Positions 41,393 through 41,655 of a DNA stretch of 64,000 nt are shown piece by piece. This stretch comes from an uncultured Gammaproteobacteria bacterium (GTDB taxonomy: Bacteria; Patescibacteriota; Patescibacteriia; UBA9934), in assembly GCA_964344415.1 (NCBI GenBank), contig CAYFMS010000001.1, forward strand, positions 317,315-381,314. Direction: 5' to 3'. Both the position numbers and the translations under genes were made by a program. Under the pieces are notes generated by a model that saw nothing but the letters and a program-made list of their open reading frames with translations, was not told where the DNA came from and did no database searches. How positions within the stretch are numbered: the stretch's first letter is position 1; each line of letters opens with the position of its first letter.

Positions 41393-41655
41393 CATCGGGA
41401 GGAGTGGTTTTCTCGGCCTGTAAACAAGCCGAGCATCATTTCATCCTGTAAGGGATGAACGGCCCTGCTACGGGGCAGACAGACATCCACAATGAACATC
41501 TGCTTCGAAGGGATTTCAACCTTCGGGTACGATTTGAACTGCCTCCATGAGAAAGACATCTTTTGTGCCCCGAAAAGGGGACATGTTTTTCTCAGGGTTC
41601 TAAAAGAACAATACCTCACGCTAGCATGAATGCATACGAGTGTCAAGCCGAGATC
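41393..41655 (-). promoter_or_regulatory. CRISPR leader copy 1. It is about 95 % identical to 44250-44505, structured, and has the promoter at its distal edge.
   Basis: Near-identical to the sequence flanking array 2. On the minus strand it shows TTGACA at 41655-41650, 17 nt, then TGC-extended TAGCGT. Hairpins include ctcggcctgtaaacaagccgag, catcctgtaagggatg and ccccgaaaagggg. Confidence 0.6.

What the first reader, a model, noticed from the sequence alone, without database searches (positions are those of the whole stretch)
41393..41655. Duplicated structured CRISPR leader that may double as a scaffold RNA (tracrRNA/omega-RNA-like)
Segments 41393-41655 and 44250-44505 are about 95 % identical. 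Both end exactly at a TTGACA -35 element, followed by 17 nt and TGcTAGCGT, which drives transcription on the minus strand into the repeats. Unlike typical AT-rich leaders, these are about 48 % GC and contain several stable hairpins (ctcggcctgtaaacaagccgag, catcc-tgtaa-gggatg, cccc-gaaaa-gggg). The leader/repeat junction ccactcctcc can pair with ggaggagtgg of the first repeat. This resembles an anti-repeat/scaffold fused to the array, as in TnpB omega-RNAs and Cas12 tracrRNAs.
Basis: partly seen in the sequence, partly recalled or inferred. Interest (0 to 1): 0.7.

Follow-up and report, generated by a model that had tools for sequence, protein, structure and literature searches.

The report
Leader-encoded tracrRNA of mini CRISPR cassettes

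Summary
Window 41393-41648 and 44250-44505 are 92.6 % identical without gaps, and the similarity stops 2 nt beyond a TTGACA -35 box. Each copy is the 5' part of a minus-strand cassette: promoter, about 215-nt structured RNA, 2- or 5-spacer array, truncated repeat, terminator. The cassettes flank a 234-aa Cas1 and a 429-aa TnpB/Cas12f-fold protein (PADLOC V-F model, E 1e-103).

The same cassette, in 1-3 copies, lies beside relatives of this protein in about 25 Patescibacteria loci. A covariance model built only from the two window copies finds full-length matches ending exactly at the first repeat (E 1e-9 to 1e-25). In that alignment 94.7 % of cells pair, against 63 % in shuffles, and 38 of 42 pairs show compensatory changes.

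Two leader segments co-vary with the repeat:
- The 3' end (ACCACUCCU) pairs with GGGAGUGGU.
- The loop of a 4-bp hairpin (GUAGCA) pairs with the last six repeat bases (UGCUAC).

This is the published Cas12f1 tracrRNA layout. The leader is therefore a tracrRNA-type scaffold co-transcribed with its array. Expression, processing and protein binding are untested. The effector lacks the RuvC-I aspartate. Verdict: interpretation supported; new variant of a known kind.

The parts
41618..41646 (-). Promoter of cassette A: -35 TTGACA (41646-41641), 17-nt spacer, TGC-TAGCGT (-10 at 41623-41618)
   Evidence: Sequence. The position is conserved in homologous loci. The generic scan does not list it because the -10 box is weak.
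41400..41617 (-). tracrRNA-like scaffold A. Elements: P1 41595-41548; P2 41525-41506; P3 41502-41480; 4-bp hairpin 41476-41462 with anti-repeat loop GUAGCA 41471-41466; P5 41459-41440; P6 41433-41412; 3' anti-repeat ACCACUCCU 41408-41400
   Evidence: Fold z = -5.3. Model R1 matches in about 25 loci. Covariation. Coordinates checked.
41222..41392 (-). Mini-array A: repeat 41392-41353, spacer 41352-41321, repeat 41320-41281, spacer 41280-41250, truncated repeat 41249-41222. In each full repeat the last 16 nt (GGGAGUGGU-G-UGCUAC) are the targets of the two anti-repeats.
41199..41221 (-). Intrinsic terminator ending cassette A
41732..43021 (-). 429-aa TnpB/Cas12f-fold effector. The RuvC-I Asp is replaced by Ala244, there is no zinc finger, and it has its own promoter at 43088-43060 and terminator at 41711-41690.
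   Evidence: PADLOC Cas12_x1 (CAS-V-F), E 1.3e-103. AF2 pLDDT 86.6. Foldseek top hits TnpB and Cas12f. Motif columns. Promoter and terminator.
43095..43799 (-). Short Cas1 of 234 aa that matches Cas1 profiles only from about position 85 onward. It is conserved next to the effector in nearly all loci, and no Cas2 or Cas4 was found.
43842..43863 (-). Intrinsic terminator ending cassette B
43864..44249 (-). Mini-array B: five full 40-nt repeats, five spacers of 31-32 nt, and a truncated sixth repeat (43892-43864)
44257..44474 (-). tracrRNA-like scaffold B. Elements: P1 44452-44405; P2 44382-44363; P3 44359-44337; hairpin 44333-44319 with loop GUAGCA 44328-44323; P5 44316-44297; P6 44290-44269; 3' anti-repeat 44265-44257
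   Evidence: The differences from copy A in P3 keep the pairing (A-U to G-U, U-G to C-G).
44475..44503 (-). Promoter of cassette B: -35 TTGACA 44503-44498, -10 TAGCGT 44480-44475

Best explanation
Each so-called leader encodes a Cas12f-type tracrRNA placed in the leader position and transcribed together with its own mini-array.

Inferred steps:
1. A sigma-70-type promoter starts a minus-strand transcript, which I estimate at about 410 nt for cassette A and about 630 nt for cassette B. It ends at an intrinsic terminator.
2. Its first roughly 215 nt fold into P1, P2, P3, a 4-bp hairpin, P5 and P6.
3. Two segments pair with the last 16 nt of a repeat. The hairpin loop GUAGCA pairs with the final UGCUAC next to the spacer. 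The 3' end ACCACUCCU pairs with GGGAGUGGU just upstream.
4. With the first repeat this happens within one molecule, giving a natural single-guide RNA. With later repeats it must happen between molecules.
5. The scaffold-repeat-spacer RNA is bound by the 429-aa Cas12f-like protein and guides it to DNA.
6. Because the RuvC-I aspartate is missing, the protein probably binds without cutting.
7. The repeat-proximal DNA probably also serves as the integration leader for the short Cas1.

Shown here: the sequence anatomy, conservation, covariation of the helices and of both anti-repeat:repeat duplexes, the fold class of the protein, and the co-occurrence of the parts. Inferred: transcription, processing, protein binding, trans action, and silencing without cleavage.
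For: Conservation:
- Cassettes of the same build, in 1-3 copies, lie beside relatives of the effector in every locus long enough to show them.
- A covariance model built only from the two window copies gives full-length matches ending at the first repeat in about 25 Patescibacteria loci, E 1e-9 to 1e-25.

Structure:
- In the model-made alignment 94.7 % of cells are paired, against 63.3 % in shuffles.
- 38 of 42 pairs have changes on both sides.
- The covariation score is 0.687, against 0.19 in shuffles and at most 0.16 when the partners are slid.

Loop to repeat end:
- 97-98 % of cells pair, with 0 of 500 shuffles reaching the observed pairing or covariation score.
- The sixth pair appears as AU, GC, CG and UA.
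- L022 has GUAUCG:CGAUAC, L021 GUACCG:CGGUAC and L026 GUGUCA:UGACAC.
- These columns are unpaired in the model, and the result holds on a structure-blind MAFFT alignment.

3' anti-repeat:
- Examples of matched changes are ACCACUCC:GGAGUGGU (window), ACCCUUGGU:ACCAGGGGU (L001), ACGUCC:GGACGU (L023), ACCACCC:GGGUGGU (L020) and AUCC:GGAU (L018).
- Cognate duplexes average -11.5 kcal/mol against -8.8 for non-cognate ones; 0 of 10,000 permutations reach that value.

Other points:
- Many G-U pairs fix the transcribed strand as the minus strand.
- There is no terminator between leader and array, but there is one after each array.
- The layout equals the Cas12f1 sgRNA. That RNA has a 5-bp stem whose loop forms one anti-repeat:repeat duplex, then a long stem, then a 3' end forming the second duplex, and its 5' stem is dispensable (PMC8053092). 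Here P1 is absent from two of the three L001 copies.
- The effector has the TnpB/Cas12f fold and matches a V-F model.
Against: - There are no expression data of any kind: no transcript ends, no processing sites, no protein binding.
- The -10 box is weak, 3 of 6.
- The sequences are phylogenetically related and partly paralogous, so the shuffle counts are not probabilities.
- The main alignment was fitted to the structure, although the two anti-repeat duplexes were also tested on an unfitted alignment.
- Beyond the first 5-6 pairs the 3' anti-repeat duplex is lineage-specific.
- In the window lineage the 5' half of the repeat can itself pair with part of the same target (CCCCUCC with GGAGAGGG), so a competing fold exists.
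- In four lineages (L015, L029, L024, L023) the 5' end of the repeat copies the loop motif. In those lineages alone, the loop-repeat complementarity could come from sequence homogenisation.
- No protospacer was found, so the target and PAM are unknown.
Confidence: 0.85

Rival explanations
1. It is an ordinary CRISPR leader. The DNA is conserved only because it carries the promoter and the recognition signals for Cas1 integration. The two copies are alike because of a recent duplication or gene conversion, and the RNA has no role of its own.
For: It sits where a leader sits and carries a promoter. Arrays of the same strain from three samples differ at the leader-proximal end, as expected for polarised spacer uptake. 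A short YUAG-like motif just before the first repeat recurs in many lineages, and this could be an integrase signal. This role can coexist with the scaffold role.
Against: Recognition of DNA does not predict compensatory base changes in five hairpins, G-U wobbles on one strand only, or a loop 110 nt upstream that tracks the last six bases of the repeat. Conservation spans more than 160 nt at 30-37 % effector identity.
Confidence: 0.04
2. It is a structured cis-acting 5' region that is not part of the effector complex. It might stabilise the transcript, set processing sites for a host RNase, or regulate read-through into the array. In this view the pairing with the first repeat serves only processing.
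For: The RNA is conserved and structured and is physically joined to the array. The pairing shown is equally compatible with an RNase III-type processing duplex. Nothing here shows protein binding.
Against: The effector has the TnpB/Cas12f fold, and solved members of that fold need a 100-200-nt scaffold that a 40-nt repeat cannot supply. The order of elements copies the Cas12f1 tracrRNA point by point. There is no attenuator-like terminator between leader and array.
Confidence: 0.09
3. It is the omega-RNA of a TnpB transposon or a decayed remnant of one, and the repeats are duplicated transposon-end fragments rather than a working CRISPR array.
For: The protein is TnpB-like, with weak HTH_OrfB_IS605 and IS200_TnpB matches and a TnpB structure as top Foldseek hit. 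The scaffold precedes the guide in one transcript, and a pairing next to the guide exists, as in omega-RNAs.
Against: The element does not overlap the 3' end of the effector gene. It is separated from the gene by a terminator and has its own promoter, and it can lie upstream, downstream or inverted. No TnpA gene turned up in any locus, although I did not search for one or for transposon ends. A Cas1 gene is conserved beside the effector. Spacers are regular at 31-32 nt, unique, and differ between samples.
Confidence: 0.02

Closest known systems
Cas12f1 (Cas14a1, subtype V-F1) tracrRNA / sgRNA
   Same: Miniature TnpB-fold effector. Long structured tracrRNA, which I recall is encoded next to the array. 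A short stem whose loop pairs with the repeat end beside the spacer, then long stem(s), then a 3' end that forms a second duplex with the repeat. The 5' stem is dispensable (PMC8053092; here). The effector matches a PADLOC V-F model.
   Different: Here the tracrRNA is fused to the array in one transcription unit with its own promoter and terminator. The whole unit is present in 2-3 copies per locus with arrays of only 1-8 spacers. The effector lacks the RuvC-I Asp and the zinc finger. Adaptation rests on a short Cas1 alone. No sequence similarity to solved Cas12f proteins is detectable.
TnpB omega-RNA (IS200/IS605)
   Same: One RNA carries scaffold and guide in 5'-to-3' order. A tertiary pairing lies next to the guide. 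The partner protein has the same fold.
   Different: The element does not overlap the tnpB 3' end or a transposon end. No TnpA gene turned up. A repeat-spacer array and Cas1 are present, and spacers turn over.
dCas12f-sigmaE guide RNAs and 'omega-RNA arrays' (Altae-Tran 2023, PMC10691335; Hoffmann 2025, PMC12259090)
   Same: A nuclease-inactivated Cas12f-like protein. Guide units consisting of scaffold plus guide are repeated in the locus. Those papers propose a path from a dual-RNA CRISPR system to fused single guides.
   Different: Those systems have lost arrays and Cas1 and gained a sigma factor. Here arrays and Cas1 are kept and no sigma factor is linked. The host is Patescibacteria, not Bacteroidetes.
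Cas12k (V-K) and Cas12m (V-M): type V systems that bind DNA without cutting
   Same: Type V effectors with a naturally impaired RuvC site that still use CRISPR guides. From my own knowledge, Cas12k uses a roughly 200-nt tracrRNA encoded just upstream of its array.
   Different: Cas12k works with Tn7-like transposition genes, which are absent here. Cas12m uses no tracrRNA. The two are larger, about 590-600 aa in the solved structures, and are distinct families.
Canonical CRISPR leader
   Same: It lies directly upstream of the first repeat, carries the promoter, and spacer content varies at that end.
   Different: It is not AT-rich (48-49 % GC). It is conserved over more than 160 nt across distant relatives, with RNA-level covariation.

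Membership tests
tracrRNA of type V (Cas12f-like) | Non-coding element encoded in the CRISPR-cas locus beside the array | tested here: met
   It lies directly upstream of each array in the window and in about 25 homologous loci. There is no conserved ORF.
tracrRNA of type V (Cas12f-like) | Anti-repeat complementary to the repeat, co-varying with it | tested here: met
   Two anti-repeats were found: the 3' end of the leader and a hairpin loop. Both show compensatory changes, also on an alignment not fitted to the structure.
tracrRNA of type V (Cas12f-like) | Scaffold layout as in solved Cas12f1 sgRNA (short stem whose loop pairs with the repeat, long stem, 3' anti-repeat) | tested here: met
   The order of elements and their covariation were compared with the description in PMC8053092. 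This compares layouts only, not sequence homology.
tracrRNA of type V (Cas12f-like) | A separate RNA molecule that acts in trans on crRNA | not testable with these tools
   No terminator or second promoter separates it from the array, so it is probably co-transcribed. RNA end mapping is needed to show processing into a separate RNA.
tracrRNA of type V (Cas12f-like) | Bound by the effector and required for its activity | not testable with these tools
   Only co-occurrence with the effector is shown.
Subtype V-F effector (Cas12f/Cas14) | Miniature (400-700 aa) protein with the TnpB/Cas12f fold | tested here: met
   429 aa. AF2 pLDDT 86.6. Foldseek top hits are TnpB 8h1j and AsCas12f 8j12, E about 1e-11.
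Subtype V-F effector (Cas12f/Cas14) | Match to a curated V-F profile | tested here: met
   PADLOC PDLC01225 'Cas12_x1, CAS-V-F effector', E 1.3e-103, full length. The model named Cas12f matches only at E 0.0012, and NCBIfam and Pfam give only weak N-terminal hits.
Subtype V-F effector (Cas12f/Cas14) | Intact RuvC D-E-D triad | tested here: not met
   Across the 38 aligned sequences, motif I is Ala in 25 and Ser in 4, and Asp appears only in 5 distant relatives at about 20 % identity. Motif II has E or D in 33 of 38. Motif III is not conserved.
Subtype V-F effector (Cas12f/Cas14) | Zinc-finger (CCCH/CCCC) element near the RuvC domain | tested here: not met
   There is no Cys cluster in the C-terminal region of any member, and no OrfB_Zn_ribbon match.
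TnpB omega-RNA | Overlaps the 3' end of tnpB and the transposon right end | tested here: not met
   It is separated from the effector gene by a terminator and has its own promoter. It is also found upstream and inverted.
TnpB omega-RNA | Scaffold and guide contiguous in one RNA, guide at the 3' side | tested here: inconclusive
   This holds structurally for the first spacer of each cassette, with a repeat in between. The mature RNA is unknown.
Canonical CRISPR leader | Upstream of the first repeat, carries the promoter, new spacers enter at this end | tested here: met
   Promoter position. L001, L002 and L003 encode the same effector in different samples and differ by leader-proximal spacers.
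Canonical CRISPR leader | AT-rich, conserved only among close relatives and only at the DNA level | tested here: not met
   48-49 % GC. It is conserved with covariation at 30-37 % effector identity.

The most novel reading that the evidence does not exclude
The cassette may be a natural single-guide RNA generator. Because the tracrRNA is fused in cis to the first repeat, the newest spacer of each cassette would be born as a ready-made sgRNA, and the locus would multiply whole cassettes instead of lengthening one array. Together with an effector that has lost the RuvC-I aspartate but kept a minimal Cas1, this Patescibacteria lineage would be a living intermediate between dual-RNA Cas12f CRISPR systems and the fused-guide 'omega-RNA arrays' of exapted dCas12f/TnpB. 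It would be an adaptive system that silences targets by binding rather than cutting.
Probability: 0.3. Interest if true: 0.75.

Novelty: new variant of a known kind. Interest (0 to 1): 0.55.

Why it matters
- It assigns a function to a conserved 200-nt non-coding element that is not in Rfam. It also gives the likely guide-RNA design (scaffold, two anti-repeats, 40-nt repeat) for an uncharacterised 410-460-aa Cas12f-like family from Patescibacteria. That design is what is needed to reconstitute the system.
- If the effector is indeed a natural nuclease-dead protein that still acquires spacers, it offers a very small programmable DNA binder.
- The conserved promoter-tracrRNA-mini-array-terminator cassettes give a concrete system for asking how tracrRNA-dependent CRISPR arrays and single-guide omega-RNA arrays convert into each other.
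- The kind of element, a tracrRNA beside a V-F array, is already known.

Tried and rejected
- Rfam: nothing at gathering thresholds in the region, and only sub-threshold chance hits over terminators at E up to 1. No known RNA family matches.
- Sequence searches of the effector and its family profile against PDB found nothing. Only the fold search placed it.
- The search for related loci with the 38-sequence alignment failed for lack of a conserved stretch. It worked with 28 closer sequences.
- MAFFT alignments put several hairpins out of register. I therefore built the model from the two window copies only and used MAFFT only for the interactions whose columns were in register.
- RNAalifold proposed UACCC (upstream of P2) pairing with GGGUA of the repeat. 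Both sides are nearly invariant, so this could not be tested, and I dropped it in favour of the two co-varying duplexes.
- Targets of the spacers:
  - There is no self-match in the window; the best is 21 of 32.
  - 81 spacers gave no match in the phage records.
  - Six 20-nt seeds were scanned in IMG/VR and one 24-nt seed in JGI metagenomes. The results were nothing, or the array itself, or one 20-nt hit that does not extend over the remaining 11 nt. With about 0.1-0.2 chance hits expected per scan (my estimate), I treat that hit as chance. The PAM and target remain unknown.
- The neighbouring TM0106 RecB-like nuclease was considered as a partner or Cas4 substitute. It is absent from all other loci.
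- Literature: I could not find this family or its leader described. The Altae-Tran 2023 supplement and the Cas14 paper are not held. From memory I suspect it may correspond to one of Cas14d-h or a V-U group, but this is untested.

Full report
**1. What is in the window**

Reading 39000-46000 and listing repeats shows two small repeat-spacer arrays. Array A spans 41392-41222 and array B spans 44249-43864. On the + strand each is followed by a copy of the same non-coding segment of about 255 nt.

All features lie on the minus strand. In transcription order they are:
- Cassette B: promoter, leader, five spacers, a truncated sixth repeat, and an intrinsic terminator at 43863-43842.
- A 234-aa Cas1 (43799-43095).
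- A promoter TTGACA-17-TATTCT (43088-43060).
- A 429-aa ORF (43021-41732) with its own terminator (41711-41690).
- Cassette A: promoter, leader, two spacers, a truncated third repeat, and a terminator at 41221-41199.

Repeats are 40 nt and spacers 31-32 nt.

**2. Checking the observation**

- At a fixed offset of 2857 nt, the copies 41393-41648 and 44250-44505 are identical at 237 of 256 positions (92.6 %). Similarity stops 2 nt beyond the -35 hexamer.
The -10 box is weak, and the generic scan does not list it.
- GC is 48-49 %, against 45 % for the window.
- The named hairpins exist. The 300-nt transcript folds far better than shuffles (-117.4 kcal/mol, z -5.3).
- The leader-repeat pairing is 9 bp (ACCACUCCU with GGGAGUGGU), not the 10 bp quoted.

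**3. The proteins**

- The 429-aa protein has only weak N-terminal matches to TnpB-type profiles and no sequence match in the PDB.
- PADLOC's CRISPR model 'Cas12_x1, CAS-V-F effector' matches it end to end at E 1.3e-103.
- An AlphaFold model (pLDDT 86.6) has ISDra2 TnpB and AsCas12f as best structural matches at 10-14 % identity.
- An exhaustive profile search finds 126 representative relatives at E below 1e-10, 68 of them below 1e-30.
- Across the 38 aligned family sequences, the RuvC-I aspartate position is Ala in 25 and Ser in 4. Asp appears there only in 5 relatives at about 20 % identity.
- Motif II keeps E or D in 33 of 38. Motif III is not conserved, and there is no zinc finger.
- A D-to-A change at motif I is the standard way to make dead Cas12 proteins (own knowledge). 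I therefore infer a DNA binder that does not cut. A rearranged active site (D271 and E389 are nearly invariant) is not excluded.
- The short Cas1 lacks the N-terminal domain. It is conserved at full length beside the effector in nearly all loci.
- The RecB-like nuclease next to cassette B is not conserved in the other loci.

**4. Related loci**

- Contigs for the nine close homologs and 19 loci from a scan of species-representative genomes all come from Patescibacteria metagenome-assembled genomes.
- Wherever the contig is long enough, the same cassette is present: a TTGACA-type promoter where the upstream DNA was read, a 200-270-nt leader, a very small array, a truncated repeat and a terminator.
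- Arrays carry between one and eight spacers.
- L001 has three cassettes. L004 has two at 98 % identity. In L010, L020 and L021 one copy is inverted.
- Contigs often end inside the leader, as expected for a repeated element.
- L001, L002 and L003 encode the identical effector in three samples. They differ in spacer content, including leader-proximal spacers. The arrays are therefore live.

**5. The leader is a conserved structured RNA**

- Sequence profiles already detect the leader at 30-37 % effector identity.
- A covariance model built only from the two window copies (160-nt core, six helices) gives full-length matches that end exactly at the first repeat in about 25 loci, E 1e-9 to 1e-25. 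The window holds only the two full-length copies; its other matches are weak ones inside the arrays.
- On the resulting alignment of 25 distinct sequences:
  - 94.7 % of cells are paired, against 63.3 % in shuffles.
  - 38 of 42 pairs have changes on both sides.
  - The covariation score is 0.687, against 0.19 in shuffles and at most 0.16 for slid partners.
- That alignment is fitted to the structure and the sequences are related, so these figures overstate significance. The per-helix pair types are nevertheless unambiguous; for example P5 column 68:101 has CG 10, GC 10, AU 2.
- Frequent G-U pairs fix the strand as the minus strand.
- Rfam has no matching family.

**6. Two anti-repeats**

- First anti-repeat. 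The 3' end of the leader, after a conserved GAAAAC, pairs with the repeat 8-16 nt before its end and changes with it. Examples:
  - Window: ACCACUCC with GGAGUGGU.
  - L001: ACCCUUGGU with ACCAGGGGU.
  - L023: ACGUCC with GGACGU.
  - L020: ACCACCC with GGGUGGU.
  - L017: ACCUUC with GGGAGGU.
  - L018: AUCC with GGAU.
  Cognate duplexes are 2.7 kcal/mol more stable than non-cognate ones, and 0 of 10,000 permutations reach the observed mean.
- Second anti-repeat. The seven-base loop of a 4-bp hairpin (GCCC-CGUAGCA-GGGC in the window) is complementary to the last six bases of the repeat.
  - The stem itself co-varies: GCCC:GGGC, GCGC:GCGC, GCGG:CCGC, GCGU:ACGC, GGCU:GGCC.
  - The loop-repeat pairs change together in L022 (GUAUCG with CGAUAC), L021 (GUACCG with CGGUAC) and L026 (GUGUCA with UGACAC).
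  - The sixth pair occurs as AU, GC, CG and UA.
  - These columns are single-stranded in the model, so the alignment is not biased toward the pairing. On a structure-blind MAFFT alignment the result is the same: 98 % paired, with 0 of 500 shuffles reaching the observed values for the three interactions tested together.
- In the more distant subfamily, a further pairing links the P5 loop (UGAGCA) to the linker before the first repeat (UGCUCA). It shows compensatory variants: L024 has CAGC:GCUG and L016 has GUGAAU:AUUCAC. In the window subfamily a tetraloop replaces it.

**7. Comparison with what is known**

- The solved Cas12f1 sgRNA is described as follows (PMC8053092):
  - Dispensable 5' stems.
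  - A 5-bp stem whose loop forms one anti-repeat:repeat duplex, which positions the guide.
  - A long stem.
  - A 3' end that forms the second duplex.
- The element here has the same order of parts. P1 is also missing from two of the three L001 copies.
- It is therefore best called a V-F-type tracrRNA.
- It differs from the textbook case in four ways:
  - It is co-transcribed with the array, so the first spacer is a natural single guide.
  - The whole cassette is duplicated while the arrays stay tiny.
  - The effector lacks the RuvC-I aspartate.
  - It has only a short Cas1 as partner.
- It is not a TnpB omega-RNA in the strict sense. There is no overlap with the gene end, no TnpA gene turned up, and a Cas1 gene is present.
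- Nuclease-dead Cas12f relatives and repeated scaffold-guide units have been described in Bacteroidetes (PMC10691335, PMC12259090). Those systems have lost arrays and Cas1.

**8. What remains open**

- Nothing here shows transcription, processing, protein binding or the nature of the target.
- Spacer searches were negative or at chance level.
- I could not find this family or its RNA described in the held literature.

**9. Verdict**

It is a new variant of a known kind and of moderate interest.

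Noticed in passing
window 41732-43021 (-): The Cas12f-like effector has Ala244 at the RuvC-I aspartate position. Across the 38 aligned sequences this position is Ala in 25 and Ser in 4, with Asp only in 5 relatives at about 20 % identity. There is no zinc finger and motif III is not conserved, which suggests a natural nuclease-dead effector that still has an adaptation gene.
   Followed up: partly
window 43095-43799 (-): The 234-aa Cas1 lacks the N-terminal domain (profile match starts at about position 85). 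It is conserved at full length next to the effector in nearly all loci, and no Cas2 or Cas4 was found. It may be a Cas1-only mini-integrase, as in V-C/V-D systems (that comparison is from memory).
   Followed up: partly
window 43021-43799 vs L001 5302-7371: Gene order in the window is cas1 then effector, with a separate promoter (43088-43060) between them. Every other locus has effector then cas1. The terminator after the effector (41711-41690) resembles the one after array B (43863-43842; 84 % over 25 nt), which hints at a local rearrangement.
   Followed up: no
window 44562-45986 (+): A TM0106-family RecB-like nuclease (NCBIfam E 5e-101, weak Cas4 hits) lies divergent from cassette B. tblastn finds no counterpart in any of the other loci, so it is probably not part of the system.
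   Followed up: yes
window 40195-40400; L001 4540-4640: A GC-rich palindromic element (CCTGCCGGCAGGCAGGC and its flanks) occurs twice near cassette A and again just upstream of a cassette in L001. It may be a REP- or MITE-like repeat of these genomes.
   Followed up: no
L015 6158-6197, L029, L024, L023 (first repeats): In these lineages the 5' end of the repeat (GUAGCAGAACC) copies the tracrRNA loop region (GUAGCAGGGCC). Each repeat is therefore self-complementary at its ends. This may be a trace of repeats arising from scaffold segments.
   Followed up: no
L012-L029 leaders (e.g. L015 6100-6160): The P5 loop UGAGCA pairs with UGCUCA in the linker before the first repeat, with compensatory variants in L024, L016 and L018. 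This pseudoknot is absent from the window subfamily, where P5 ends in a tetraloop.
   Followed up: partly
L005 1660-1760; L006 2010-2110: In this lineage cas1 is reduced to its first roughly 30 nt (ATGAACGCACTCTGG...) fused to a repeat remnant and terminator. This is an apparent deletion of the adaptation gene.
   Followed up: no
L032 874-893; L033 828-847 (IMG/VR contigs): The first 20 nt of the first spacer of L018 match two near-identical viral contigs exactly. The remaining 11 nt do not match (2 of 11), so this is probably a chance hit given the number of scans.
   Followed up: yes
window 41548-41595 and 44405-44452: The base of P1 (UGAGAAAAAC ... UUUUUCUCA) is almost invariant in sequence across the whole family, yet it is missing from two of the three cassettes in L001. 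Its role is unclear: RNA stem, protein site or DNA operator.
   Followed up: no
window 19841-20220 (-), 56896-56991 (+), 11487-11563 (+): A tmRNA, a SAM riboswitch and a tRNA-Asp are present. These are ordinary features of the host genome. The window comes from contig k127_100043 (768 kb) of ERZ930061.
   Followed up: no
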